A stretch of DNA of 64,000 nucleotides, taken from a virus. The notes beneath the pieces were generated by a model. It was not told the DNA's origin. It saw only the letters and a program-made list of their open reading frames with translations, and did no database searches. Below, piece after piece: positions 264 to 59,841 of the stretch (position 1 is its first letter; each line of letters opens with the position of its first letter). The stretch spans positions 64,001 through 128,000 of IMG/VR virus record IMGVR_UViG_3300047548_001271; one strand, written 5' to 3'. The position numbers were made by a program, and so were the translations under genes.

Positions 264-948
264 TAAAACAACCCTTAAAGTTTTCTTTGGATACTTTATT
301 ACGAATGAATTTCATAGTTCTGCAAAACAATTCGGCGGTCATCATAACGTCGGACATAGCATCGTGTGCAGTTCCTTTAGAATAACCCATGTGACCTCTT
401 ATTAAATTATCCGCACTTAGAGATGAAACTTCTTTATCATTCTCAAAAAAGCTAAACATGAATGGATACATATCAATTACATTGATTATGCTAAACAAAT
501 CTTGTCTATTTTCTTTATTTGATGGTCCATATTTATAAGGTTCTTTACAGCAAATCCTTTCAACAATAGGCATGTCAAAATTTACAATATTATAACCAGT
601 TGCAATTGGTGCTGTAAAATTGCTATTACCAGTATTGAACTGCTTACAATATTCAGTAAAATTTGACCATACCGACTCAAGAGATGGAGCATTTTCTAGC
701 ATCTCTTTAGTCTTTCCATGTTTTTTAACAGCGTCATCTGTTAATGGATCAAGATTCAATTTTTTGCATTTTTCTTCATCAAAAATTGGACGGATCAATG
801 ATTGAAATTCTGTTCCGTGCTTTATCTCTAATTTTCGGCCATGAATAACTACCGCAGCAATTTGAACTGGTTGTGTTGTCGCAGCAAACTTAGAAGTGGT
901 TTCAAAGTCAAAACATATAAAATCTCTATAATTCATTAATCTCTCCAA
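256..948 (-). CDS. DEDDh 3'-5' exonuclease (DnaQ/epsilon-like proofreading subunit)
   Basis: ExoI DFETT, ExoII GYNIVNFD, ExoIII HDAMSD; lies among the dnaE fragments. Confidence 0.88.
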   Translation of the reverse strand: MERLMNYRDFICFDFETTSKFAATTQPVQIAAVVIHGRKLEIKHGTEFQSLIRPIFDEEKCKKLNLDPLTDDAVKKHGKTKEMLENAPSLESVWSNFTEYCKQFNTGNSNFTAPIATGYNIVNFDMPIVERICCKEPYKYGPSNKENRQDLFSIINVIDMYPFMFSFFENDKEVSSLSADNLIRGHMGYSKGTAHDAMSDVMMTAELFCRTMKFIRNKVSKENFKGCFNV

Positions 949-17085: not shown

Positions 17086-19116
17086 TTAAAAAATTCTAGT
17101 ATTAAGTTTTTGAGGTTTGAAACCATTGTAACCAGAGAAAGCCCAACAATCACCGCTTTTTAGAATTCTATTTTCAATTTCTTGGGCATCAACCCAGAAT
17201 GAACCATCTGGTTGATTATGTCTTTTTGGTCCACTATTCCAGACTCCCCAAGAATTTTGAACTAACACTCCAGGTCTTTTATATTCGTCGTCAACGGCAA
17301 TAATGCACATTTGATGCGCCCAATTTCCTTCTGGTTTAGCAAAACCTTCAGAATCTCTCTTGTTAGAAAACCCTTGATTACTAGCAATCGTAACAGCATA
17401 ACCATTTACAATTAAATCTCTAACTTCGTTATATGTTTTTACTTGGGACACAGTTAATACACTATGTTCCTTAGCTATTGGTATTAATTCTGCTGGAACA
17501 CCAACACTTGGCATTCCCCAAGATTTTGCTCGCTGTGCATCATATTTTGATAAATCAATATTTCCATATTTCTGTCTTGCTAAAGCCCCGAATTTACTAA
17601 CATATTCTGCGGCCCACGCACCTAACGATCCATCGTCAGATCCGATTTGCCCCTTGCCAATTTGTACTCTGCTGCCAGCGTAAATATCCTCAGTAGCTGT
17701 CTCAGCAACCCACTCCTCAAACTCTTTATTAAGGAAGATATCTACGGCTTTAATAATATCTACTGCATATGCGGCTCCCATTGATACACAATTGTGAATT
17801 CCATATCCATTGCATATAAACGAATGATCTTCTTCTACTCCTATACAATATACGTATTCAGTTTCAGGTTCAACAATTTCTATTTTACATATTTTTGCAG
17901 CCTTACCATACTTAGTAACTTGCTTTTGGTTTAATTTTAATCCAATCGCTTGTTGTGTTAATACATCTACACCACAGTTAAGATTTAGTGAAAAAGATTC
18001 TTTGCTTTGTTTATACGCTTTTCTTTTTTGAATAGAACAATTTATATTAATTGAGTTTGCTATTTGAAAAAAATCATATATTAAATTTTCTGAAACAGAA
18101 ACTCCAATTTGATTATTATATCCATCACCATCCATCCATCCAGATAAAATCTGTAGTTTATTTTGTTCTGTTGTTATGAGTAAATCTTTATTTAATTTTT
18201 TGTTGTAAACATTACCAGAACATAATTTCTTAAATAGAGAACTGATAAGTAAATTTTGAACTCTTACATATATTATAGATGGTTTTGAAGGAACTGACGT
18301 TATGATGGCGTCAAAATCAAAAACGTCTTTAATATACGATTTTATCTTATTTGCTAACACGACCTCTTTAGAAGATAAGTTAAAGGTTATTCTTCCATTA
18401 TCAATACCGCCCTCTGCCGCATAAATCCCAATTAACCAGCAAAGCTTTTCATCTAAATCAATAAACCTGTTTATTTCTTTACTTGATCCTTTTACTCTTA
18501 TTTTATTAAAAAAAACAGGTTGTGTTCTTAATTTTTTAAAATCAGATTCGCTTGTTATAGATTCACCACATAAATCTTTTAAGTCGTATTTATATTTATT
18601 AATTGAAGGAAGTTTTGGTAATAGAATATAGTCGCCTTCATTTAAAGCGACTATAGGCTTCCATTCTATTTTAGATTTGTCTCCTGATTTACCCCTTCCA
18701 ACATTTGGAAGATACATATATAAATGATCTGGAGTTGACTCTATTGGTTTTTTATAGCCAGAAACGTGTATTCTTACCATGCTTTTATTGTATGGTTTTT
18801 TTATATAGTCTATAACTCTTCTAATGTTTCCATAAGGACTTATTACATATTCTCCTATCTTTATATCTTTTATTTGTTTTTCAGACCCATCCGCCATTCG
18901 AACCATAGCAGATGGATTTTGACAGTCGCCAATACCTTGATTCCTATTAGGAAATGAACCAGCAACTTTCTCTACAATCTGATATAGTAATGCTTTTTTA
19001 CCAGCACCGCTATCCTTAATTGGAGCCCAAACATCATTAAAAACCGGGAAAGGTAATCTATTCATTACCTTTTCAACTAAGTTTGGTTTATTTACCCATC
19101 CAAATTTATTACTCAT
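17086..19116 (-). CDS. papain-like (C1) cysteine peptidase interrupted by an intein
   Basis: Spliced product reads NQGIGD|CVSMGAA (oxyanion Gln, catalytic Cys), WAHQM (His), VQNSWG (Asn). Confidence 0.88.
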   Translation of the reverse strand: MSNKFGWVNKPNLVEKVMNRLPFPVFNDVWAPIKDSGAGKKALLYQIVEKVAGSFPNRNQGIGDCQNPSAMVRMADGSEKQIKDIKIGEYVISPYGNIRRVIDYIKKPYNKSMVRIHVSGYKKPIESTPDHLYMYLPNVGRGKSGDKSKIEWKPIVALNEGDYILLPKLPSINKYKYDLKDLCGESITSESDFKKLRTQPVFFNKIRVKGSSKEINRFIDLDEKLCWLIGIYAAEGGIDNGRITFNLSSKEVVLANKIKSYIKDVFDFDAIITSVPSKPSIIYVRVQNLLISSLFKKLCSGNVYNKKLNKDLLITTEQNKLQILSGWMDGDGYNNQIGVSVSENLIYDFFQIANSININCSIQKRKAYKQSKESFSLNLNCGVDVLTQQAIGLKLNQKQVTKYGKAAKICKIEIVEPETEYVYCIGVEEDHSFICNGYGIHNCVSMGAAYAVDIIKAVDIFLNKEFEEWVAETATEDIYAGSRVQIGKGQIGSDDGSLGAWAAEYVSKFGALARQKYGNIDLSKYDAQRAKSWGMPSVGVPAELIPIAKEHSVLTVSQVKTYNEVRDLIVNGYAVTIASNQGFSNKRDSEGFAKPEGNWAHQMCIIAVDDEYKRPGVLVQNSWGVWNSGPKRHNQPDGSFWVDAQEIENRILKSGDCWAFSGYNGFKPQKLNTRIF
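17791..18924 (-). mobile_element. intein (378 aa) with LAGLIDADG homing endonuclease
   Basis: Block A CQNPSAMVRMADGS, block B STPDH, LIGIYAAEG and LSGWMDGDG motifs, block F VYCIGVEEDHSF, terminal HN followed by +1 Cys. Confidence 0.93.
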
Positions 19117-46860: not shown

Positions 46861-46951
46861 TTAACCGCAGGAGAGAGGTCACTCCAACCCGACCAAAACC
46901 GAACTCTAGGTCGCCCTCTGGCTTATGGTTTTCCTGATTACATGCGGTTAA
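46861..46951. ncRNA. candidate structured RNA/3' element after the RNA ligase gene
   Basis: TTAACCGCA/TGCGGTTAA ends, AGAGG/CCTCT, CGACC/GGTCG, possible AAAACC/GGTTTT pseudoknot. Confidence 0.4.
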
Positions 46952-48231
46952 GAAACTTCTTCCATATCTTGATAGTCGTCAGCTTCCTTAGCAATCCCCT
47001 CCAGAACCTTAAAGAGGAACGATTTGTTCTTGAAAGTCTTCCATTTACTAGAGTCTACGCGAACGCACACTCCTTCTCGCGGATGACGAGGATCAACCAA
47101 GTCAGGTCCGTCAGTAAATCCATCCACCACTTCAAGAAGTTTATCGTAGTCTCCATCGAAAGTCAAGCGAGAAATCTCAGGAACGTATTTGACGCCCCAA
47201 GAATCACATTTCGACTTCACTTGATCCCATGTGAGATCGATAGCCTCGCCATTAGGAAGAACGTAAGCAATACGATAGACGTAGATATCAAAGTCAAGAA
47301 CAGGGAAACCAGTTTCATCGCATTTGCGAGCATCACAGTTATAGGTATAAGTAATCTTATCGCCATACAACTTCTTAACTTCCTTGTCCTTAGTTTTAGA
47401 TGTATCTTGAACTGGCATGATAGGTTTACCATACTCAAAACCAACAACCTCAAAGAAAATTTCCATATGGTCTTCGAGATATGGATATAGCTTTTCAGCC
47501 ACCTTTTCGCGGAAAGACTCAGAGTAATACCCAGTGTCATCTCCACGAAGTGTTACGTTACGAGTCCCATTGTAGAGACGCATAACTTTACGATCTCTCT
47601 TGATTTTGAAGAATTCGAGAACTCTGTCATACCATTTTTCCGGTTTCTCTTCGTAGTTCTTTGCAACTCGCTGAGAAGTTCCGTGCATTTTTAGAGTGAT
47701 GACAAGGTTATCACCAGCTTTGATCGAAGCTAGAGAGTGACGTAGCTGCTCAGTATCCTTATGTTTCGGAAACCAAATGCTCTCACGACAAACCTTAGTA
47801 GAGTTATTGCTTCTAGCTCTAAGAGTCCGAGGAGAAAAGTATTTCTTGCAGATTTCCTTGCCGTTAAATGTGGCGATTTTATCTCCTTCTTTCAGAGAAG
47901 AAGTATCACCAGCGTAATTCAGGTGCGACAGCGGACACCAAAATCCATTAGATTTTAGGCCTCGAACTTTTTGTGCTCGAACCTTACGGTTTTCATCGAA
48001 CATTCCTCCGGCATTAGTTCCGTCCGGATTCTTTCGACGAACGAGATCATTTGCAGCGGCAAATTCTTCGCTAAGCTGTAGATCGCAAGGGAAATACAGA
48101 CCTAGTTCACCATCAGCAGTCTTGTTCGAAACAACAATAGTTTCCCCAAGAACCCAACCAACAGCAAGCGAATGAACTTCTGGATCTGGGTGTGGTGTTA
48201 CTTTAATTCGTGTTACAATGGCTTCGTGCAT
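46948..48231 (-). CDS. RNA ligase (Rnl2/DRB0094-like)
   Basis: N-terminal OB-like 'V.PHP..HSL', HKDTEQL, motif I TLKMHGTS, FEVVG, REGVCVR, K.K. Confidence 0.85.
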   Translation of the reverse strand: MHEAIVTRIKVTPHPDPEVHSLAVGWVLGETIVVSNKTADGELGLYFPCDLQLSEEFAAANDLVRRKNPDGTNAGGMFDENRKVRAQKVRGLKSNGFWCPLSHLNYAGDTSSLKEGDKIATFNGKEICKKYFSPRTLRARSNNSTKVCRESIWFPKHKDTEQLRHSLASIKAGDNLVITLKMHGTSQRVAKNYEEKPEKWYDRVLEFFKIKRDRKVMRLYNGTRNVTLRGDDTGYYSESFREKVAEKLYPYLEDHMEIFFEVVGFEYGKPIMPVQDTSKTKDKEVKKLYGDKITYTYNCDARKCDETGFPVLDFDIYVYRIAYVLPNGEAIDLTWDQVKSKCDSWGVKYVPEISRLTFDGDYDKLLEVVDGFTDGPDLVDPRHPREGVCVRVDSSKWKTFKNKSFLFKVLEGIAKEADDYQDMEEVS

Positions 48232-49534: not shown

Positions 49535-50791
49535 TTACTTTTCTGGAATTTGCAGCAGAAGATCCATATTTCCATTCCCCATGAAGTAGGTCGGGAAACT
49601 ACCATTCCACTTTTCAACCTTCTTAGTTTCTAGTTCTAACCTCTTCAAGCCAAGATACAATTCAGTGTCTTTCTTTGCTTGTTCAGCTTCATACGTCTTC
49701 GCGTCTGCAACGAGTTTGATTGCGTCAGCCTCTCCTTGTTTCTCCGTAAGGATAGCTTTAGCCTTTGCCTCCGCTTCAAGCTGAATACGCTTGTTTTCTT
49801 CAAGCTGGGCTGTTGTTTTCGCAATCGCAATGAAAGATTCTTGTTCGGCGTTAAACACCTCAGCCATCTTTTCTTGAATTTTTGGGTTACGATATACAAA
49901 TCCACCAGTAATTCCTAGATTTGTAATTGTAATACCTCGTAGAGCAAAAAAGTCTGTAATATTTTTTGTTACTTCTCGAATAATTGGAGTGGCTTTAGAT
50001 TTTAGTTCATCCATTGGCTTATCAGTAACGGCGAGACTAAATTCACTCTGTAGTTTTGCTCTAATTTCACTATCAAGAACTGATGCAAGGCTTCCGTTTT
50101 TATATGTTGACAAGAATAGTGCGGCGTCTTCTCGTGATTTGATATATGCAGTACAAGTCCAACCAGTAGAAAATTCAACTTGATCGCTAGTCATTACCCA
50201 AATAGCTTGATCAAACTGCGACGTACCAGACTTTGTATCCGCTGTCCATTCTCGCGTGACCGGTTCAGTTGCAACTCGGATCAATTTAGCAGCATCAATC
50301 CATTCTCCATTCCACCCTTTAAACCAAGCGAATGTATTATATCCTCTGTCAACCCACATTTGAGGAATTTTTACTTGCTGAGAAAGAACCACCTTTTTTT
50401 CGTACTCTTCTGCAGAAATTGCGGCTTGATTTTGAACATCTGCATTGTTGATAATGAACGCCACCTCATTTGGTTCAACCATCTCATATTTGTTCGGCTC
50501 GAAAGGTTTTCGACACCCGCTTATGAAGAACAAGACAACTAAAGGAAAAAGGCTCTTCAGATACTTCAGCTTAGAACGATACGCAGTAATCCACATCAAA
50601 ACAACTCCTACAACAGATAGTGACCAACAAGCAGACCTCACTTGAGAATCAACCATTAACTCGTTGGTTATTGGCTTATTAAACTGATTAATATGTGCTT
50701 CCCTTTTTAGTTGAAGATTAGCACTATCATAAATCGACAACCCCGCAAAAACAAGACTCGTCACGACAACCAGCAAAATAAATTTGTACAT
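49535..50791 (-). CDS. SPFH/band-7 domain membrane protein
   Basis: N-terminal TM helices, GITITNLG, Ala/Glu-rich coiled coil, EKWNG.FP. Confidence 0.8.
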   Translation of the reverse strand: MYKFILLVVVTSLVFAGLSIYDSANLQLKREAHINQFNKPITNELMVDSQVRSACWSLSVVGVVLMWITAYRSKLKYLKSLFPLVVLFFISGCRKPFEPNKYEMVEPNEVAFIINNADVQNQAAISAEEYEKKVVLSQQVKIPQMWVDRGYNTFAWFKGWNGEWIDAAKLIRVATEPVTREWTADTKSGTSQFDQAIWVMTSDQVEFSTGWTCTAYIKSREDAALFLSTYKNGSLASVLDSEIRAKLQSEFSLAVTDKPMDELKSKATPIIREVTKNITDFFALRGITITNLGITGGFVYRNPKIQEKMAEVFNAEQESFIAIAKTTAQLEENKRIQLEAEAKAKAILTEKQGEADAIKLVADAKTYEAEQAKKDTELYLGLKRLELETKKVEKWNGSFPTYFMGNGNMDLLLQIPEK

Positions 50792-51760
50792 AAACTTTTC
50801 CTTTTTAAATAATTTGAATGAATGTACAGTCTTTGCATCCCCAAGAAGTATTATCATCCCATGTATTATTGCTTCCGCATTTTGGACACTTCATTTATAA
50901 GATCCTTTTTATATTAGTCAACTTTAATCCCACTTTTTTCAAGAACTTTCTTAGCTCTTTCAATTTGTTTTTTCTCTGCTAAGGCTTTTCTTTTTTGTTG
51001 AGCCTCTTCTTGTTTTTTAATTTCTTCTTTTTCTTTTTCTTGTTCATCTTGAATGAATTTCTTAATATTCTCAATAAAACCATCAATCGTTTTTTTGCTT
51101 GTAATGTCTTCTAAAATAACTATTTCAGTATTATACTTTGATAAACGTTTTTTACCTTGTGGGCTTTGTAACCATTTAAGTTCCTCTTCCGTTACATCTT
51201 CCCATTCAGATTGTTCATTTGTCTCAAAAAGTTTAGCATTTTGACAAAATGTATAATTACAAGTATCACAGTGTATAATATTGTTATGAACTCTAATCAA
51301 TTTAATTCTTGGCATGGCACACCTCATTTGACATCGTTAAAGCCCAGATCATTAATCCGCGTTTATGGTTGCCGCCACTAACACGAATATAATGACTTGA
51401 TATTTCATTATGTGGATATTCATCTGCATCGCAGAATATTTTTTTACTTGGAACCCACATCATTCCTGAGTCAGTAATATTCAAGAATATACCACTAGTA
51501 TGCTTGTATACTAGCGTGTCTTTATCTTGAGTCCATCCAATACCTGGTTTTAGTTTATTTTTCTTCATTCAATTCACCAGTCATCCATTTTCTCAAATCA
51601 ACAATTAAAAACCAATCTTGGTTAATTTTTTTAGCAATTTCTAAAGCTTGTTCTTCTGTTTCAAAGCATCCTCTCCAATCTTCTGTTCCTGCGGAGTAAC
51701 ACTCGTTATCTGCAGCGATTAGCAGAAATGGTTTATTCATTATAAATTTGCTTTCTCAAG

Positions 51761-52018
51761 TGGACCTGGCCGGATTCGAACCGGCGTCTCAAACTAACTA
51801 TATAACAATTCATTCACACGTTTAGTTGCTGAGCAACGTCCTTAGTTTATACGATAACAATCCACTCTTGGTTGATAGGGTTTGTGGAGACCCCACGCTT
51901 ATGCAGCGAGAGAAACGATGTTTGCTCTTATTTTTTGATTGGCTTTTTACGAGGCCAGCCGATCAACCTCGACGTGCATCATTATACCGCTTCATCTGAT
52001 CGATACCATTACAGGCCC
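51761..52018 (-). ncRNA. ssrA: tmRNA (258 nt, tag ANIVSLAA)
   Basis: GGGCCTG/CAGGTCC-A acceptor with G3.U, T-arm GCCGGTTCGAATCCGGC, PK1 (GAGG..GGCT GGCCTC..AGCC), resume codon GCA, ORF GCA AAC ATC GTT TCT CTC GCT GCA TAA at 51925-51899. Confidence 0.92.
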
Positions 52019-52635: not shown

Positions 52636-53097
52636 TTAGATATCATTTGATGTAAACTTTTCATATTCACTTTCCATCATTAAATAACAAAAAACATTTC
52701 TTCCGTGAGTTAAATATGTATATATCTTTGTTTTTGGATTAAACTCCAACCAAATATCATTCCACGGCCCACGAAATGTTAAAGCCCATGTGTCTGAATG
52801 AGACACCACTCGATGTATATTATTTCTCGGAGTGAATTTTGGCAAGAACGACGCTTTAAAATTTTTATTTTCTCCGGTCAATTTTTCTTCTGTGACTTCT
52901 CCGCTCAAAAACCAAGTAATAGCATTAAATGCGTGTGAGTGGTAATTTTCGCGAGAGCCATTCTTAAAATGAAGAAGTCCAATTGAAAAGAGCTTCTTCC
53001 ATTCTACTAGAAAATATCCAGTAACACCAGACTCAGCACCGCCGTCAAATTTTTTATAAAAGAATCGTGGAAGCCATTTGTGAAGAAATACATTCAT
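52636..53097 (-). CDS. cupin-like phage protein
   Basis: YHSHAF...E...HRV...W.L.F.GP. Confidence 0.6.
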   Translation of the reverse strand: MNVFLHKWLPRFFYKKFDGGAESGVTGYFLVEWKKLFSIGLLHFKNGSRENYHSHAFNAITWFLSGEVTEEKLTGENKNFKASFLPKFTPRNNIHRVVSHSDTWALTFRGPWNDIWLEFNPKTKIYTYLTHGRNVFCYLMMESEYEKFTSNDI

Positions 53098-53378
53098 CTA
53101 CGACCATCCTCTTGCAGTAAAAAGTGTGCTCTATATACTGGCTTTGTAAAACCTAAATATATTTCCCAGTCAGAATATCCATGCTCGACAAATCTATCTT
53201 TTTCTCTTATGTATTCTACTACACGTTTCTCTTTTAGTTGTTCAGAATAAACAACTCTAAATTTTTCAACGTCTGTATGGATTGTTTTTATTTCGTATCT
53301 ATCAAGTTCTTTACGAACGTCATTTCTTATTTGATCTATACAATGTTTATTATTTGGGTGCGTTATTATGTATTGCAT
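53094..53378 (-). CDS. hypothetical protein preceded by a UMACAGCA RNA module
   Basis: 94-aa ORF. Confidence 0.5.
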   Translation of the reverse strand: MQYIITHPNNKHCIDQIRNDVRKELDRYEIKTIHTDVEKFRVVYSEQLKEKRVVEYIREKDRFVEHGYSDWEIYLGFTKPVYRAHFLLQEDGRR

Positions 53379-53383
53379 AAAAA

Positions 53384-53437
53384 GGTCACTTTCTTAGTAT
53401 CGAAACTAAATAATCCATATTAATGCTGTGAGTGACC
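53384..53437 (-). ncRNA. UMACAGCA module, leader copy E
   Basis: GGTCAC-TCACAGCA...TTAGT/ACTAA hairpin-GAAA-GTGACC. Confidence 0.6.
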
Positions 53438-53636
53438 ACATTACTCGCCGTGACGAGTAAAGATCTCTTTCCACACATGGTGGACGAGGCTATCGCTTTA
53501 ACATCTCCATTATGAGAGCCCAATCAAGAAGCATACTAAAAATATGTATAAATCCATAAATATACAAATTATAGTAAGGTTGTTTTCTTAAAATAAAACT
53601 AGAAAAAACATTTATTAGTGTAAACATTATTAGTTC

Positions 53637-54032
53637 CTATTTAAACAACCCAGAAAAAAGACCTTTAACAACCTCTTTAGATTTTTCTCCAACCCATTCA
53701 CCAGCCACGCGAGATTTATTTATATCAGTTTTTTCAACTATTATATCATCTTTTGTAAATTTAATTCCATCTGGACCAGCAGATCTAATCGTCGCCTTGT
53801 CAAAATTGTCAGATTTTTCAAGCTTGTGGTCAACCACATTTCCCCATGGGTCCATTGCTGGTTTATATTCACTATCAGATTTTAGTAGTTTTGCGACCTC
53901 GTTTTCTAGCACTTTCTTTTCTTGTATGCTACTAAAACTAAAACCCCCAATAAATGCAATGATAAGAAAACCAGCCAATACAAAAGTAAAAAACTCGTCT
54001 ATTTGAAGAACACCATCTATAATCTTTTTCAT
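53637..54032 (-). CDS. membrane-anchored protein with GspG-like pseudopilin C-terminal domain
   Basis: TM helix; DPWGN ... IRSAGPDG..FTKDDI. Confidence 0.7.
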   Translation of the reverse strand: MKKIIDGVLQIDEFFTFVLAGFLIIAFIGGFSFSSIQEKKVLENEVAKLLKSDSEYKPAMDPWGNVVDHKLEKSDNFDKATIRSAGPDGIKFTKDDIIVEKTDINKSRVAGEWVGEKSKEVVKGLFSGLFK

Positions 54033-54051
54033 AGAAACCTTTCAAAAAAAA

Positions 54052-54160
54052 TCCGGCAGCTAGGATTCGAACCTAGATCACGATCTTAGAAGTGATAATT
54101 TTAATGCTGTTAGAGATAAAATATCTCGTTTTACGTGTTTTACCGTTAAACTACCGCCGA
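54052..54160 (-). ncRNA. tRNA-shaped RNA with UAACAGCA module in place of the anticodon loop (Y-RNA-like, copy C)
   Basis: Acceptor TCGGCGG/CTGCCGG, D-arm, T-arm CTAGGTTCGAATCCTAG; anticodon region AAAAC-GAGATA/TATCTC-TAACAGCA. Confidence 0.75.
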
Positions 54161-54161
54161 T

Positions 54162-54265
54162 ATGTGTTGCCGGGACTCGAACCCGGATGCTAAAATTTTA
54201 TGCTGTTAGAGATCTTTTCTGTATCTCGTTTTCATATTTTTGCTTTACCATTAAGCTACAACACA
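54162..54265 (-). ncRNA. tRNA-shaped RNA with UAACAGCA module in place of the anticodon loop (Y-RNA-like, copy D)
   Basis: Acceptor TGTGTTG/CAACACA, D-arm GCTT/AAGC, T-arm CCGGGTTCGAGTCCCGG; AAAAC-GAGAT/ATCTC-TAACAGCA. Confidence 0.75.
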
Positions 54266-54270
54266 TTTTT

Positions 54271-55647
54271 TTAAACAATATATCGATCTTTCATGATCGT
54301 CTCTAACATTACTCCTTCTGGTGACAGATCACCAAAAAGTGAAGGAATAATACTTGGAGAATAACCACTAACCAAAGCAACTCCTTTATCAGAAATTTTA
54401 GCTTGGAAGTTTTTATCTCTGCCGTTAACATTCCAGAAAACAACTTGAGGAAGTTTATATCCATGAGACTCGAATTGAGATGTCATAGTTTGATAATTTG
54501 TCCCACGACAAGCAGAATTAAATTCCATGTCAGAGATGATTAGAATTTTACTTGGCATGTCATGGTTTGTCAAGTTGTTTTGTACGGCTTTGTTGAGAAT
54601 CAACTCAAATACTTTTTGTAAGTCAGTGCTCATTCCCCATTCAGCTTGAGAAAGCTGTCTAAGTCGTTGACCAAAGTCACCAGAAAGCTGTTGAAGTTTT
54701 GGATTACTAGAGAAGGTAATAAAACAATCCTTAAAGATTCCAGTATTACGCTGCGAACAGTACATTGCTAATGAAATTGATGCATGAATTGGTCTAAATT
54801 GAGGATCTGAATAACAACCCATGCTACCACTAACATCAGAAACAACCAATACATTTTCATCTGTATAATAATTCGGTAGTGCGTTCCACTGAGCAACAGC
54901 AACTACTGGATTTTTATTATACGATAGCAAAACATCATGAGGGAACAAAACACTAGCATTTATTTTTGCTTCACCAGAAGCTACTTTCGTCATGTATTGA
55001 CCAAATCTTTTTGGATCTCGCTTATTAAAAGACCGAGAATAAATAGACATAGCTTTTGATGGAACAGCAGAATATTTAATTTCTGACCATTGACGAGCAC
55101 TCATCTGTTGTTCAACGACTTTAGTATTTTTTACAATTCTTTGCTTGAGACTAATAATCGAAACATCTAGTTTGGCAGCGACAAGGCCAAGCAAATTTCC
55201 TTCATTGTGTCTTGGTAGCCACTTACAAAGAAGATTATTGTCAATGTTGTCTGCGATAAACTGTGCTGTGTCATCGCATACTGGCATTACCATCCTTTTA
55301 GTAGTTGAGGTGCCCCATAGATCGTCCCATCGACCAATATCTGGAACCCTCTTCATAACTCTGATCTTATCTGCTTTAGGAAGAGATCTGTAAATCAACC
55401 GGAAAAGTCTTCGTTCTCCAGCTCCTCCACGAGGATCTCTCAACCACAGCAAAATTCTGAGTGCGAGATCTGGATTACTGATGTAGGCTTTTTCCCACAA
55501 AAGCAAAACTTCCTTGTCTGGACGGCTTCTCATAGAAGCAATAGTAGAAAACAAATCAACTAAAGGAGAACCAGTAGTTGAATGGGATTCTGCCCCATTA
55601 GCAGTCAGAGAATCATTCGTTTGAAGAGCATTAATCAATTTAGACAT
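54271..55647 (-). CDS. Ro60/TROVE-like protein (DUF2828-type helical domain plus vWA)
   Basis: T.NGA..H.TTG...VDLF, RDPRGG.GER, GRWDDL, KWLPR, Y..VPS.AM, DVSGSM MIDAS, ISDMEFN, FWNV, SGYSP. Confidence 0.85.
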   Translation of the reverse strand: MSKLINALQTNDSLTANGAESHSTTGSPLVDLFSTIASMRSRPDKEVLLLWEKAYISNPDLALRILLWLRDPRGGAGERRLFRLIYRSLPKADKIRVMKRVPDIGRWDDLWGTSTTKRMVMPVCDDTAQFIADNIDNNLLCKWLPRHNEGNLLGLVAAKLDVSIISLKQRIVKNTKVVEQQMSARQWSEIKYSAVPSKAMSIYSRSFNKRDPKRFGQYMTKVASGEAKINASVLFPHDVLLSYNKNPVVAVAQWNALPNYYTDENVLVVSDVSGSMGCYSDPQFRPIHASISLAMYCSQRNTGIFKDCFITFSSNPKLQQLSGDFGQRLRQLSQAEWGMSTDLQKVFELILNKAVQNNLTNHDMPSKILIISDMEFNSACRGTNYQTMTSQFESHGYKLPQVVFWNVNGRDKNFQAKISDKGVALVSGYSPSIIPSLFGDLSPEGVMLETIMKDRYIV

Positions 55648-55665
55648 GGTTTAAATCCTTAAAAA

Positions 55666-55717
55666 TGTCGCATTTCATTCAGGAAAAGTGAATTTTTTTT
55701 ATGTGCTGTTAGCGACA
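55666..55717 (-). ncRNA. UAACAGCA module, leader copy B (5' of the TROVE-like gene)
   Basis: TGTCGC-TAACAGCA...ATTCA/TGAAT hairpin-GAAAT-GCGACA. Confidence 0.7.
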
Positions 55718-55726
55718 ATATGACTA

Positions 55727-56725
55727 CTATTTCATCACCAAAACTCGCTGTTTTGGTATTACATTCCTATTAACGCTTGTACTTTGAATAAACACAATCC
55801 ATTCGCCATGATCTTCCGGTGTAATCTTTACTTCTGAATTCGGAAGATTTAGCAATGTTCTTGCATTATCACCAGTATAAACTTTACCATTCTTTTTGTT
55901 CTGTACGGCAATTTCTTTTTGCGGTTGAACATGTTCATTTTTTACTAGTTCATAAAAAGAATTTCCAAGAACATATTTAGTCCCAAGTTTCTTTTCAACG
56001 AGCGGTTTTATTTGAACCGCTTTTACATCCTCGTTGATGATCACATCATAGCTTCCGTCTTTTACTATGTCAAGCACTTTCGAAACATTTTTTGAAGTCA
56101 CTTCGGAAAGATTAGAGAAAATGCTTCTGGTAGACTTAACTCCGGATTTTCTTGCTGTGAAGAAATTATCCATCGTCTGCTTGAATTTATTACCGACCTC
56201 AACAACGCCTTCTTTTGTTGCATTCCAGATTTCAATATTTCCTTCTGGAATACCAAGATTTTTTAAGGCCATGACGCCCGCTTGATTAGGAACAAAAGCG
56301 GCAACTGTAAAATTATCTGGAAGAGTTTTTAATTGATTGATTAATTCTATCGGTTTTGTTTTTGAGTGGTTTTCTTCTCCATCCGTTATTAGATAAATAA
56401 TGAAAGAGTGATCGCCGTATTTTTGAGGAAGCTCTTTCGCATCATTAATAGCTAGACAAAAAGCATCTCTTAAGGCCGTATTTCCATAAGCTGTGATTTC
56501 TTCAAGTTTTACTGGTCTTGCCACATCAACATCACTAATTACACATTTAACATCAGAAGCAAAAGTATAGAAACTAATTCTAGTCTCTTGTTCTTGTTCA
56601 ATGCTAGACTGCCTCAGATTATCTATTTGTAAATTAAATATATCAGAAGCTGTTTTGATGATTGGAGCCATTGAGCTTGATACGTCCAAGCAAACAAATA
56701 CATGGTTTTTATAAGTATTTTTCAT
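55727..56725 (-). CDS. vWA-domain protein
   Basis: LDVSSSM MIDAS, G.TAL.DA, ITDGEEN.S; C-terminal FYEL.K.E.VQ..K...STS.NR. Confidence 0.88.
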   Translation of the reverse strand: MKNTYKNHVFVCLDVSSSMAPIIKTASDIFNLQIDNLRQSSIEQEQETRISFYTFASDVKCVISDVDVARPVKLEEITAYGNTALRDAFCLAINDAKELPQKYGDHSFIIYLITDGEENHSKTKPIELINQLKTLPDNFTVAAFVPNQAGVMALKNLGIPEGNIEIWNATKEGVVEVGNKFKQTMDNFFTARKSGVKSTRSIFSNLSEVTSKNVSKVLDIVKDGSYDVIINEDVKAVQIKPLVEKKLGTKYVLGNSFYELVKNEHVQPQKEIAVQNKKNGKVYTGDNARTLLNLPNSEVKITPEDHGEWIVFIQSTSVNRNVIPKQRVLVMK

Positions 56726-56746
56726 AAGAGATCCTTAAAAGTTACA

Positions 56747-56800
56747 TGTCGCGTTTTAATCTTTTACCAAAAAAAAGTTATTTTTATGCTGTTAGCGACA
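56747..56800 (-). ncRNA. UAACAGCA module, leader copy A (5' of the vWA gene)
   Basis: TGTCGC-TAACAGCA...CTTTT/AAAAG hairpin-AAAC-GCGACA. Confidence 0.7.
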
Positions 56801-56801
56801 A

Positions 56802-56884
56802 TGGACCGAGTAGGAATCGAACCTACCAACACAAGAATTTAAAATCCGGATTAAAATTCTTATAGACACCAGCTCTGTCGGCCC
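56802..56884 (-). ncRNA. tRNA-like RNA with Ala identity and extended, anticodon-less arm
   Basis: GGGCCGA/TCGGTCC-A (G3.U70, A73), T-arm GTAGGTTCGATTCCTAC, long AU-rich hairpin at the anticodon position. Confidence 0.65.
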
Positions 56885-56891
56885 TTTTTAA

Positions 56892-56965
56892 TGGACAGAA
56901 TAGGAATTGAACCCACCACAGATGCATTGCAAATGCTTCTCGCCACCCTTGGAACATGTCCGCCC
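56892..56965 (-). tRNA. tRNA-Ala(UGC), atypical D-arm
   Basis: GGGCGGA/TCTGTCC-A with G3.U70; loop TTTGCAA. Confidence 0.75.
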
Positions 56966-56972
56966 GTATTAT

Positions 56973-57000
56973 ATTGTATAGTCTATTTGGCGATTGTCAA
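56973..57000 (-). promoter_or_regulatory. sigma70-type promoter heading the tRNA-Ala/vWA/TROVE unit
   Basis: TTGACA-N16-TACAAT, ending 7 nt before tRNA-Ala. Confidence 0.7.
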
Positions 57001-59199: not shown

Positions 59200-59841
59200 T
59201 CATAAATTTATCCAAGAATTAGTTTTCCAAGAAGTGATTAACCATTCTACATAATCAGCATTGTTTACACCATACCATCCACAAGCAAATGGCGGATGAG
59301 ATTCTACTAAAAGTAGACGACCATCATCTGTTAAACCAAAATCAACAGCACCACAAAATTTATCTGGCCAATTTATATTTAGTTTTGGACCATCAGAATC
59401 TATATAAACTTCATCATCATCGCCGCCTAAATACCAGCCAGATGTTATTTGTTTTCCATTAGCAATGTAGTACCTCCACTCGTTTACGAAGTTCACAACT
59501 TCTGAGCACCAGTATACATCATCTTTTAGCACTGTCAAGTCAGAAACCACAAAAGGTTCAAATTTTTTGAAAGATGTAGCTGACTTAACAAATAATCCTG
59601 GTTTTATTTCATTTTTTGTTCTTAATGTTATATCTCTTCCTAAGAAGTCTTTGAGAAAAGATGGATAAAAATTAATTATTTCTCGTGGTTTTGGTAGAAC
59701 CTGTAGGCAGTAGTCAACAGAACCGACAGCTATTGTATTTGGCTTCGGCTCCTTGCGAAACTCGGCGAGAAAACCATTTTTCAATGATTGAGAATACACC
59801 GCATTAGCTTCTCTACTACCTACAGGCTCTATTGAAAACAT
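59200..59841 (-). CDS. ATP-grasp (R2K/DUF4343-like) protein
   Basis: VGSV.Y, YP..L..FLGR, FVK, SEVV.F..EWRYYI, VDFG, LVE....ACGWYG. Confidence 0.75.
   Translation of the reverse strand: MFSIEPVGSREANAVYSQSLKNGFLAEFRKEPKPNTIAVGSVDYCLQVLPKPREIINFYPSFLKDFLGRDITLRTKNEIKPGLFVKSATSFKKFEPFVVSDLTVLKDDVYWCSEVVNFVNEWRYYIANGKQITSGWYLGGDDDEVYIDSDGPKLNINWPDKFCGAVDFGLTDDGRLLLVESHPPFACGWYGVNNADYVEWLITSWKTNSWINL

What the first reader, a model, noticed from the sequence alone, without database searches (positions are those of the whole stretch)
53384..56884. Ro60/TROVE-like and vWA genes with a five-copy RNA module in two circularly permuted topologies (candidate new RNP system)
Seen: one module (helix, U(A/C)ACAGCA, AU-rich linker, second helix, RAAA(Y), back to first helix) occurs five times on the minus strand within 3.5 kb. 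Three copies sit in 5' leaders just before start codons: vWA (56747-56800), TROVE-like (55666-55717) and a 94-aa ORF (53384-53437). Two copies are permuted. In these the first helix is capped by a loop and the second helix is the anticodon stem of a full tRNA body (54052-54160, 54162-54265), starting 5 nt after the TROVE-like stop. The first helix changes sequence but keeps pairing (TGTCGC/GCGACA, GGTCAC/GTGACC, ATCTC/GAGAT), which argues for RNA structure rather than a DNA site. Established: Ro60/Rsr proteins bind Y RNAs, and bacterial YrlA RNAs mimic tRNA. Inference: the module is the binding site of this Ro-like protein, used in cis on its own mRNAs (autoregulation) and in trans on tRNA-shaped carriers or decoys, perhaps against host tRNA nucleases or in RNA repair.
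Basis: partly seen in the sequence, partly recalled or inferred. Interest (0 to 1): 0.95.

Follow-up and report, generated by a model that had tools for sequence, protein, structure and literature searches.

The report
Phage Ro60-like protein and partner RNAs
This phage encodes a ring-shaped Ro60-like RNA-binding protein, and around its gene lie five copies of a small RNA "handle" that sits beside the same gene in many unrelated phages, so the two probably form an apparently unpublished cousin of the Ro/Y-RNA particle; here two handles are grafted into tRNA-shaped RNAs.

Summary
Five copies of one module lie on the minus strand at the stated coordinates: a closing helix, then U(A/C)ACAGCA, and an A-rich return strand. 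Three are "open" and end 5-21 nt before start codons. Two are "closed" and sit inside bodies that pass Rfam's tRNA threshold.

The 458-aa protein (DUF2828 + DUF7788) folds like Ro60.

A covariance model built only from other phages finds the module:
- beside the homologous gene in 29 of 34 metagenomic phage loci and in six of nine cultured phages at E <= 0.003;
- on the gene's strand in all 81 hits;
- with 98.9% pairing and compensatory changes at all 7 helix pairs;
- never in 704 kb of control contigs.

In 23 of 34 loci a copy ends no more than 80 nt before the gene.

No Rfam family reaches threshold. The nearest are YrlA and Dictyostelium Class I RNAs. I found no paper on this RNA family.

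My reading is that these are Y-RNA-like partners of the Ro60-like protein (about 0.68), perhaps also a translational operator. Binding, processing and splicing are untested.

Caveats:
- The window's copies are divergent (E 0.013, 0.022 and 0.28).
- The separate vWA gene is linked only in this window.
- This scan's earlier notes report the same family in many other genomes.

The parts
56973..57000 (-). Sigma-70-like promoter (TTGACA-16-TACAAT, 11 of 12) at the head of the unit
   Evidence: It is a consensus match only; the number of promoter-like sites in the region is not above the shuffles.
56892..56961 (-). Degenerate tRNA-like element (Rfam tRNA 17.4 bits, below threshold)
56803..56884 (-). 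82-nt tRNA-like element with acceptor and T arms and an 11-bp 'anticodon' arm. It ends 2 nt before handle copy 1.
56747..56800 (-). Handle copy 1 (open): UGUCGC / UAACAGCA / hairpin / AAAAC / GCGACA. It ends 21 nt before the vWA ATG.
   Evidence: Best window hit of models R1 and R2, which were built from other phages: 22 bits, E 0.013 and 0.008.
55727..56725 (-). 332-aa vWA protein with a DxSxS MIDAS motif and an uncharacterised C-terminal beta-rich part (phrog_26613)
   Evidence: It is not linked to DUF2828 elsewhere.
55666..55717 (-). Handle copy 2 (open), with the same helix as copy 1 and a cargo hairpin AUUCA-CUUUUCC-UGAAU. It ends 18 nt before the DUF2828 ATG.
   Evidence: (21.1 bits, E 0.022).
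54271..55647 (-). 458-aa Ro60-like protein (Pfam DUF2828 + DUF7788; phrog_850 'RNA-binding protein'): a helical repeat ring plus a vWA domain with MIDAS
54162..54265 (-). tRNA-shaped RNA 1: acceptor, D and T arms and a 5-bp anticodon stem AAAAU/AUUUU. The loop is replaced by the closed handle (helix 54227-54223 with 54213-54209, motif 54208-54201).
   Evidence: (tRNA 52.4 bits).
54052..54160 (-). tRNA-shaped RNA 2: the closed handle (helix 54127-54122 with 54118-54113, motif 54112-54105) is a side arm after position 28. It is followed by an anticodon-arm-like hairpin carrying CUUCUAA.
   Evidence: (tRNA 39.9 bits). The pairing of the anticodon arm is ambiguous.
53637..54032 (-). 131-aa ORF of no known family, starting 19 nt after tRNA-shaped RNA 2
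53384..53437 (-). Handle copy 3 (open): GGUCAC / UCACAGCA / hairpin / GAAA / GUGACC. It ends 5 nt before the ATG of the 94-aa ORF.
   Evidence: 16.3 bits, E 0.28; E 4. This is the weakest copy.
53094..53378 (-). 94-aa ORF of unknown function, preceded by handle copy 3

Best explanation
The module is the protein-docking "handle" of a family of Y-RNA-like small RNAs. Their partner is the Ro60-like DUF2828 protein encoded here.

The handle has three parts: a 6-9-bp closing helix, the single-stranded ACAGCA(A/U) motif just 3' of the helix's first strand, and an A-rich return strand. Anything can be attached on the far side of this internal loop as cargo.

In this window the cargo takes two forms:
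- Three open copies carry a small hairpin. Two of these can be drawn as anticodon-arm look-alikes.
- Two closed copies carry a whole L-shaped tRNA body.

The unit is probably transcribed from the promoter at 57000-56973. tRNA-processing enzymes would then cut it at the tRNA-like elements.

The protein would bind the handles in two ways: in trans on the tRNA-shaped RNAs, and in cis on the copies that abut the ribosome-binding sites of vWA, DUF2828 and the 94-aa ORF, where binding could throttle translation.

The biological role is most likely tRNA or RNA quality control, or decoy action against host tRNA-targeting defences.

Shown: the RNA structure, its linkage to the gene, the Ro60 fold, and the two topologies.

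Inferred: binding, processing, cis regulation and the biological role.
For: Protein:
- Pfam DUF2828 (7.5e-31) and DUF7788 (1.4e-46).
- AlphaFold2 model with pLDDT 82.6 and pTM 0.83.
- Its 13 best PDB matches are all Ro60/TROVE structures over the full length (9kop, 9l5y, 2nvo, 2i91, 1yvp; E 5.6e-10 to 3.3e-5).
- The MIDAS residues D271, S273, S275, T341 and D373 are invariant in 25 homologues.

RNA. Model R1 was built from 15 modules of other phages only.
- It gives 54 hits at E <= 1 in 34 DUF2828 loci. All are on the gene strand, none lies inside the gene, and 48 lie within 600 nt of it.
- It gives 27 of 27 hits on the gene strand in nine cultured phages. The hits at E <= 0.003 are in Listeria P100, Aeromonas LAh_8, Staphylococcus SEP9, Bacillus Tsamsa, Campylobacter F336 and Mycobacterium Snenia.
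- It gives 0 hits in 704 kb of control viral contigs, each of which contains ATCTCTAACAGCAT.

Covariation:
- 98.9% of cells are paired.
- All 7 pairs show changes on both sides.
- 120 compensatory cells against 34 in shuffles.
- Slid controls pair at 31-45%.
- RNAalifold finds the same helix on an independent MAFFT alignment.

Window copies rank 1, 2 and 6 of all R1 hits in the window.

Link to known Y RNAs:
- In relatives L013 and L001 the same handle encloses a T arm, a capped acceptor stem and a D arm. This is the YrlA topology.
- Rfam YrlA matches L013 over its full length at 37.7 bits.

Cargo mimicry: 15 of 50 distinct handles carry 7-nt loops with U at position 2 and a purine at position 6 (CUUGUAA, CUUUUAA and others), against 0.46 in shuffles.

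Leader position: a copy ends at most 80 nt before the gene in 23 of 34 loci.

Context:
- The gene lies within or beside a tRNA cluster here (with a tmRNA) and in Felix O1, phiSUSP1, F336 and Tsamsa. P100 has two tRNA genes upstream, annotated on the opposite strand.
- RNA ligases lie nearby: PF09414 here at 46948-48231, and RtcB in P100.

Literature:
- A Thermus phage Ro60 binds two Y-like RNAs encoded upstream of its gene (PMC12135203).
- Gp130 of the E. coli phage Bas63, described as structurally similar to Ro60 and lying directly upstream of that phage's tRNA genes, counters the Ppl defence (PMC11482910).
Against: - No binding, expression or end-mapping data exist.
- The window's handles are divergent. 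They lack the family's conserved (A)GG...CCUGU termini and score only 22, 21 and 16 bits (E 0.013, 0.022, 0.28). With the larger model R2, copy 3 falls to E 4.
- Similar-scoring, probably chance, hits exist at 535-603(+) and 18012-18072(-).
- No tRNA carrying a closed handle was found in the 34 DUF2828 loci that I screened with ARAGORN, or in the 51 loci of the pattern scan. The closed topology therefore rests on two copies with nearly the same helix.
- Nearest-neighbour energies do not favour the cloverleaf-plus-handle folds: -17.9 against an MFE of -23.2, and -16.6 against -28.2 kcal/mol.
- Co-occurrence does not prove that the protein is the ligand.
Confidence: 0.68

Rival explanations
1. 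The handle is a purely cis-acting leader or processing signal of the DUF2828 operon. It could be an RNase entry or stop site, or an mRNA stabiliser, recognised by a host factor rather than by the Ro60-like protein. Its linkage to the gene would then only reflect its being that gene's own 5' untranslated structure.
For: - A copy lies directly before the DUF2828 start codon in 23 of 34 loci.
- In the window, copies abut three ribosome-binding sites.
- No binding data exist.
Against: - Many loci have 2-8 tandem copies. Some have copies only downstream of the gene: L003, L005, L027, L028, Staphylococcus SEP9 and Mycobacterium Snenia.
- Copies carry elaborate cargo, namely permuted tRNAs and anticodon-arm mimics. 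A plain leader does not need this.
- In the window two copies lie inside tRNA bodies downstream of the gene.
Confidence: 0.14
2. The two tRNA-embedded copies are a new kind of short intron or mobile insert. It would be removed to give working tRNAs: Phe-GAA, and an Arg-UCU-like or suppressor tRNA. The Ro60-like protein and the nearby RNA ligase might take part in cutting and rejoining.
For: - It calls a second tRNA with a 40-nt insert.
- An RNA ligase gene lies about 6 kb away.
- Listeria P100 has RtcB near its DUF2828 gene.
Against: - The insert is the same handle that stands free beside DUF2828 genes in dozens of phages.
- The two inserts sit at different tRNA positions, in the loop and at 28/29.
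- The 'GAAAA' of the supposed Phe loop is the handle's own conserved A-rich strand.
- Removal from the second RNA leaves an 8-nt loop or a poor stem.
- No group I intron or other intron family matches the region.
- The acceptor ends (U1-A72 with discriminator U) do not look like tRNA-Phe, judged by reading and from my knowledge of E. coli identity rules.
Confidence: 0.08
3. The repeats act at the DNA level, as a promoter or operator, a recombination site or a homing site, and the pairing is incidental.
For: Inverted repeats flanking an AT-rich spacer in intergenic DNA can be protein-binding sites.
Against: - All 81 hits outside the window follow the direction of the gene.
- Helix sequences differ freely while pairing is kept at 98.9%.
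- Copies occur inside tRNA transcripts.
- The element keeps its strand order when circularly permuted. This is meaningful only for a folded single strand.
Confidence: 0.03

Closest known systems
Ro60 (Rsr) with Y RNAs in bacteria and phages: YrlA/YrlB (Rfam RF02553; Chen et al. 2014, PMC4201824) and Thermus phage phiLo Ro60 with Yrl1/Yrl2 (PMC12135203; PDB 9kop, 9l5y)
   Same: - The protein has a ring-plus-vWA fold.
- The small RNAs are encoded next to the gene on the same strand.
- A terminal helix has a conserved single-stranded motif just 3' of its first strand.
- The variable far module is often a tRNA mimic. In relatives L013 and L001 it has exactly the YrlA topology.
   Different: - The protein is not found by the TROVE profile; it hits only DUF2828/DUF7788 and has 10-16% identity to solved Ro60s.
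- The motif is (U)ACAGCA(A), not GNCGAA or CGAA.
- No RNA here reaches YrlA's threshold (17.8 bits in the window, 37.7 in L013, against 69).
- In this window the tRNA body is not permuted. The RNA ends lie in the acceptor stem and the handle is capped.
- Copies sit directly on ribosome-binding sites.
Class I RNAs of dictyostelid amoebae (Rfam RF01414; Kjellin et al. 2021, PMC7919456)
   Same: - A short covarying stem joins the 5' and 3' ends.
- A conserved motif (Rfam RF01414 consensus CCUUACAGCAA, an 11-nt motif in the paper's description) follows the 5' strand.
- The middle is variable, and the RNAs begin with G and end in CUGU.
- RF01414 is the only Rfam family that repeatedly hits the phage handles: 8 hits in Aeromonas phage LAh_8 at 18-30 bits, and 2 in L013.
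   Different: - All hits are below the threshold of 41.5 bits, and the window's own copies give no hit at E <= 10.
- Class I RNAs are eukaryotic, have their own DUSE promoter, and were reported absent outside Dictyostelia.
- Their known direct binder is an RRM protein.
- I could not test whether Dictyostelium has a DUF2828 protein.
tRNA genes with short inserts in the anticodon arm (archaeal or eukaryotic bulge-helix-bulge introns; phage and bacterial group I introns in tRNAs)
   Same: An insert of 32-40 nt interrupts the anticodon arm of an otherwise normal cloverleaf. One insert is at or next to the canonical 37/38 site.
   Different: - No intron family matches, and the inserts are too short for group I introns.
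- No splicing endonuclease of the archaeal type is known in bacteria or phages (my own knowledge).
- The insert is a free-standing RNA family elsewhere.

Membership tests
Ro60 / TROVE proteins | Helical-repeat ring followed by a vWA domain (overall fold) | tested here: met
   The AlphaFold2 model has pLDDT 82.6. Its top 13 Foldseek PDB matches are all Ro60/TROVE over about 500 aligned columns, with TM 0.36-0.58 and E down to 5.6e-10.
Ro60 / TROVE proteins | MIDAS motif (DxSxS ... T ... D) in the vWA domain | tested here: met
   D271, S273, S275, T341 and D373 are invariant in 25 homologues.
Ro60 / TROVE proteins | Match to the Pfam TROVE sequence profile | tested here: not met
   Pfam reports only DUF2828 and DUF7788 at E <= 0.01. 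phmmer against PDB sequences finds nothing at E <= 1.
Ro60 / TROVE proteins | Binds Y RNA on the outer surface and RNA 3' ends in the central hole | not testable with these tools
   This needs EMSA, CLIP or a solved structure.
YrlA Y RNA (RF02553) | Covariance-model score at or above 69 bits | tested here: not met
   The window gives one partial hit of 17.8 bits spanning the junction of the two tRNA bodies. Relative L013 gives 37.7 bits over the full length.
YrlA Y RNA (RF02553) | GNCGAAN0-1G motif near the 5' end | tested here: not met
   The motif here is U(A/C)ACAGCA. The YrlA motif definition is taken from PMC4201824.
YrlA Y RNA (RF02553) | Encoded within 4 kb of the Ro gene on the same strand | tested here: met
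   All five copies lie within 1.2 kb of the gene on its strand.
ACAGCA-handle RNAs beside DUF2828 genes (family defined here; not in Rfam 15) | Closing helix of 6-9 bp that covaries, followed after 1-3 nt by ACAGCA(A/U), with an A-rich strand before the returning helix strand | tested here: met
   The window copies are shown. Family covariation is shown.
ACAGCA-handle RNAs beside DUF2828 genes (family defined here; not in Rfam 15) | Significant score with a model built from other phages | tested here: inconclusive
   R1 gives E 0.013, 0.022 and 0.28 (ranks 1, 2 and 6 in the window). R2 gives E 0.008, 0.18 and 4. The closed copies cannot be scored by a linear model.
ACAGCA-handle RNAs beside DUF2828 genes (family defined here; not in Rfam 15) | Conserved termini (A)GG ... 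CCUGU | tested here: not met
   The window helices are UGUCGC/GCGACA and GGUCAC/GUGACC, followed by UGUA or UUUU.
Dictyostelium Class I RNA (RF01414) | Covariance-model score at or above 41.5 bits | tested here: not met
   The window gives no hit at E <= 10. Relatives score 16.5-29.6 bits.
tRNA (RF00005) | Covariance-model score at or above 29 bits with acceptor, D and T arms | tested here: met
   54162-54265 scores 52.4 bits and 54052-54160 scores 39.9 bits. G18 G19 and UUCGA are present, by direct reading.
tRNA (RF00005) | 7-nt anticodon loop on a 5-bp stem in the gene as encoded | tested here: not met
   The loop is 39 nt in RNA 1. RNA 2 has a side arm and an 8- or 10-nt loop.
tRNA introns (group I, or bulge-helix-bulge) | Group I core, or two 3-nt bulges around a 4-bp helix at the splice sites | tested here: inconclusive
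   No Intron_gpI or other intron hit was found at E <= 10. I saw no bulge-helix-bulge by eye but did not test for it formally.

The most novel reading that the evidence does not exclude
The phage handle RNAs and the Class I RNAs of Dictyostelium would be one ancient RNA family, whose true partner is the DUF2828-type Ro60-like protein. Pfam lists this protein family in eukaryotes as well as viruses; that is my recollection and was not tested here.

There would then be a second Ro/Y-RNA-type particle spanning phages and eukaryotes.

The natural circular permutation in this window would show that the protein reads only the internal loop plus its closing helix.
Probability: 0.15. Interest if true: 0.92.

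Novelty: new variant of a known kind. Interest (0 to 1): 0.8.

Why it matters
Ro60/Y-RNA particles are a classic but still poorly understood RNA-surveillance system.

- **Scale.** tblastn finds homologues of the protein in 711 of 50,697 phage records, including well-known model and therapy phages such as Felix O1 and Listeria P100. The RNA family beside these genes is absent from Rfam, and I found no description of it in the literature I could search.
- **Annotation.** Recognising the family would explain many "empty" spacers in phage tRNA clusters. It would also correct mis-called gene starts, as in Aeromonas phage LAh_8.
- **Function.** It gives a concrete ligand for a protein reported to counter a bacterial defence in the E. 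coli phage Bas63 (PMC11482910).
- **This window.** The locus is a useful specimen because it shows the handle in three settings in one operon: on ribosome-binding sites, in an anticodon loop, and as a side arm of an anticodon stem. This defines the minimal recognised unit and suggests both cis and trans roles, which can be tested with simple binding and reporter assays.

Tried and rejected
- **Protein-protein test.** Complex prediction of the Ro60-like protein with the 332-aa vWA protein gave no verdict: score 0.00 and no controls run. This is not evidence either way.
- **Whole genome.** No whole genome is held for this window, so I could not count handles genome-wide or list the phage's other tRNAs.
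- **Close relatives.** A DNA search of cultured phages found no close relative of the locus.
- **Closed handles elsewhere.**
  - A 14-mer scan of IMG/VR for the closed handle returned only chance or coding matches.
  - A pattern scan of 51 loci, and ARAGORN with introns on the 34 DUF2828 loci, found no other tRNA-embedded handle.
- **Larger model.** Model R2, built from 54 sequences, did not raise the window copies' scores.
- **Loose chance test.** The loose pattern test was not significant: 4 observed against 3.5 expected.
- **vWA gene as a conserved partner.** Rejected. Its homologues in L044-L047 have no DUF2828 gene or handle within 3 kb.
- **Other neighbouring ORFs.** The 131-, 94-, 105-, 82- and 117-aa ORFs match no Pfam family convincingly and no PHROG family.
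- **Ribozyme reading.** Considered because hammerhead and twister ribozymes also occur in permuted forms. No ribozyme family matched at E <= 10.
- **Literature.** Searches for DUF2828, DUF7788, PF11443, Ro-like with phage, and TROVE with Dictyostelium found nothing on the RNA family or on the protein's function.

Full report
**1. What is in the sequence**

The window is AT-rich (about 33% GC) and almost all its genes are on the minus strand. It carries eight tRNA genes that ARAGORN finds, plus a tmRNA at 51758-52018. It looks like a large phage.

The region of the finding reads as one unit on the minus strand:
- a sigma-70-like promoter (57000-56973, 11 of 12 matches);
- two low-scoring tRNA-like elements (56961-56892 and 56884-56803);
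- handle copy 1;
- a 332-aa vWA gene;
- handle copy 2;
- the 458-aa DUF2828 gene;
- two tRNA-shaped RNAs, five nucleotides after the DUF2828 stop and one nucleotide apart;
- a 131-aa ORF;
- handle copy 3;
- a 94-aa ORF.

**2. The two topologies**

In the open copies the order is: helix strand a, U(A/C)ACAGCA, linker, hairpin, A-rich strand (AAAAC, GAAAU or GAAA), helix strand a'.

In the two tRNA-shaped RNAs the order is: tRNA stem, AAAAC, helix strand, loop, helix strand, UAACAGCA, linker, tRNA stem.

In both forms the ACAGCA strand runs 5' to 3' from the handle helix towards the cargo, and the A-rich strand runs back. They are therefore the same two-helix internal loop, opened at different places.

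Rfam's tRNA model accepts both bodies (52.4 and 39.9 bits against a threshold of 29), treating the handle as a 34- or 51-nt insertion. Plain ARAGORN misses both. With introns allowed it calls Phe-GAA with a 32-nt insert and "CUA" with a 40-nt insert.

For the second RNA I prefer a different reading. The handle leaves the anticodon stem after position 28. An arm CG+AUC / GAU+CG then carries A+CUUCUAA, which is an Arg-UCU-like loop. The minimum-energy fold instead uses AUCAC/GUGAU with a 10-nt loop, so this detail stays open.

**3. Is it more than chance?**

- The 8-mer is over-represented: 15 occurrences against 4.0 expected. Only five occurrences have the helix context.
- A loose pattern is not above chance.
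- A strict pattern, written after the fact, gives 5 against 0.034.
- Inside the window there are only three independent helix sequences.

The case therefore has to be made from other genomes.

**4. Other genomes**

The DUF2828 protein has homologues in 711 phage records: Vibrio KVP40-like phages, Felix O1-like phages, mycobacteriophages (annotated "Ro-like RNA binding protein"), and Listeria, Staphylococcus, Campylobacter, Bacillus and Enterococcus phages. I also fetched 34 IMG/VR loci with 33-44% protein identity.

A simple scan showed the same layout just upstream of the gene, with quite different helix sequences.

I built covariance model R1 from 15 such modules, none from the window. Its results were:
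- On the 34 loci: 54 hits at E <= 1. All are on the gene strand, none lies inside the gene, 48 lie within 600 nt of it, and 29 of 34 loci have at least one.
- On nine cultured phages: 27 hits, all on the gene strand. Strong hits are two upstream of Listeria P100 gp165 (E 6e-7), ten in Aeromonas LAh_8, three downstream in Staphylococcus SEP9, and others in Bacillus Tsamsa, Campylobacter F336 and Mycobacterium Snenia. Hits are weak in Felix O1, phiSUSP1 and Vibrio nt-1.
- On 704 kb of unrelated viral contigs that each contain ATCTCTAACAGCAT: no hit at E <= 1 with the same settings.

The helix pairs in 98.9% of cells. All seven pairs have double-sided changes, with 120 compensatory cells against 34 in shuffles. 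Slid controls pair at 31-45%. RNAalifold recovers the helix from an independent MAFFT alignment.

In the window, R1 ranks copies 1 and 2 first and second (E 0.013 and 0.022) and copy 3 sixth (E 0.28). The window's copies are divergent members. They lack the (A)GG...CCUGU termini conserved elsewhere, and a larger model does not help them.

**5. The protein**

- Pfam gives DUF2828 and DUF7788 and no TROVE match. PHROGs gives phrog_850, "RNA-binding protein". PDB sequences give no match.
- An AlphaFold2 model from 25 homologues (pLDDT 82.6, pTM 0.83) finds only Ro60/TROVE structures as its 13 best PDB matches, over the full length. These include the Thermus phage phiLo Ro60, Deinococcus Rsr and Xenopus Ro60 bound to RNA.
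- The MIDAS residues are invariant.

It is a Ro60-like protein by fold, but not a member by sequence profile.

**6. Relation to known RNAs**

No Rfam family reaches threshold on any handle.

*YrlA.* In relatives L013 and L001 the same handle encloses a T arm, a capped acceptor stem and a D arm. This is the YrlA layout, and Rfam YrlA aligns to L013 over its full length at 37.7 bits (threshold 69). The handle motif differs from YrlA's GNCGAA and from phiLo's CGAA (PMC4201824, PMC12135203), although it sits at the same place in the RNA.

*Dictyostelium Class I RNA.* This is the only Rfam model that hits the simple handles repeatedly: two hits in L013 and eight in Aeromonas phage LAh_8, at 16.5-29.6 bits against a threshold of 41.5. 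The paper describes the same architecture: a G start, a short covarying stem joining the ends, a conserved 11-nt motif next to the 5' strand of the stem (CCUUACAGCAA in the Rfam RF01414 consensus), a variable middle, and a CUGU end. It reports these RNAs as absent outside Dictyostelia (PMC7919456). The window's own copies do not hit this model. I treat this as a striking resemblance, not as shown homology.

**7. Cargo and position**

Among 50 distinct handles, 15 carry a predicted hairpin with a 7-nt loop that has U at position 2 and a purine at position 6. Examples are CUUGUAA, CUUUUAA, CUGCUAA and CUUGAAA. Shuffles give 0.46. Many cargoes therefore mimic anticodon arms.

In the window, copies 1 and 2 can be drawn with 5-bp stems and the loops UUUUGGU and CUUUUCC, within 0.3-1.7 kcal/mol of the minimum-energy fold. 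Copy 3 has a 6-nt loop.

A handle ends at most 80 nt, mostly 8-25 nt, before the DUF2828 gene in 23 of 34 loci. In the window the same arrangement also precedes the vWA gene and the 94-aa ORF. In LAh_8 a handle also ends just before a membrane-protein gene. This conserved position is the main support for a cis role in addition to a trans role.

**8. What is only local**

- The 332-aa vWA protein has an N-terminal vWA fold with DxSxS, but it is not next to DUF2828 in the 34 loci.
- Its own homologues have no DUF2828 gene or handle nearby.
- I found no other tRNA-embedded closed handle in the loci I fetched.

**9. Mechanism**

Most likely (about 0.68), the handle docks the Ro60-like protein. The RNAs would then be Y-RNA-like adaptors presenting tRNA or anticodon-arm mimics. 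The tRNA-shaped ones would be cut out by ordinary tRNA-processing enzymes. The copies on ribosome-binding sites could give feedback control.

Several observations point to tRNA surveillance, repair or decoy action against host tRNA-targeting defences:
- the gene's recurrent place within or beside tRNA and tmRNA clusters;
- RNA ligases nearby;
- the report that gp130 of phage Bas63, described there as structurally similar to Ro60 and lying directly upstream of that phage's tRNA genes, counters the Ppl defence (PMC11482910).

Bas63 is a Felix O1-like phage to my knowledge, so gp130 is probably a DUF2828 homologue. I did not check this here.

The rival explanations are a host-read processing or leader signal (0.14), a new short tRNA intron (0.08) and a DNA-level site (0.03).

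**10. Novelty and earlier notes**

I found no paper on the RNA family and no Rfam family for it. It is a new variant of the known Ro/Y-RNA kind.

This scan's earlier, unchecked AI notes report the same ACAGCA handle beside DUF2828 genes in many other genomes. They also report handles inside tRNA anticodon arms and the resemblance to Class I RNAs. This window is therefore a further, divergent instance rather than a first sighting within the scan. I reached the linkage, the covariation, the fold and the Class I resemblance independently, before reading those notes.

Noticed in passing
L001:4001-5365, L027:4001-5422, L028:4001-5422: Each of these DUF2828 genes has six in-frame TGA codons. Read as glycine (code 25), two of them restore the invariant RGGAGER motif in L001. 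These relatives are therefore probably phages of hosts that read TGA as Gly, and they carry handles too.
   Followed up: partly
window 56803-56961 (-): Two low-scoring tRNA-like elements follow the promoter-like site at 57000-56973. One is 82 nt long with an 11-bp 'anticodon' arm. Neither carries a handle, and their role is unknown.
   Followed up: partly
window 46948-48231 (-), 49535-50857 (-), 51758-52018 (-), 59200-59841 (-): The locus is flanked on the low-coordinate side by an RNA ligase (PF09414), a Band_7/SPFH protein and a tmRNA gene (tag ANIVSLAA), and on the other side by an R2K ATP-grasp protein.
   Followed up: no
L041 (Aeromonas phage LAh_8, NC_048775) 2372-2501: The annotated start of the 'RNA-binding protein' (locus position 2399) overlaps two handle RNAs, whereas the protein alignment starts at 2501. 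The start codon is probably mis-called.
   Followed up: partly
L036 (Listeria phage P100) 2501-6497: The DUF2828 gene gp165 lies about 1.3 kb upstream of gp160, annotated as a tRNA splicing ligase (RtcB type), and about 0.6 kb upstream of an HD phosphohydrolase (gp162). This is an RNA-repair neighbourhood.
   Followed up: no
L006:1089-1452; L008:6153-6355: A relative also carries a tmRNA (171 bits) about 2.5 kb upstream of its DUF2828 gene. Another has a sub-threshold group I intron match (42 bits against 50) downstream.
   Followed up: no
window 535-603 (+): A handle-like match (AGGUUCU-UUACAGCAAA...) scores as well as the real copies (E 0.024). It lies antisense inside an ORF and has two broken pairs, so it is probably chance.
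   Followed up: no
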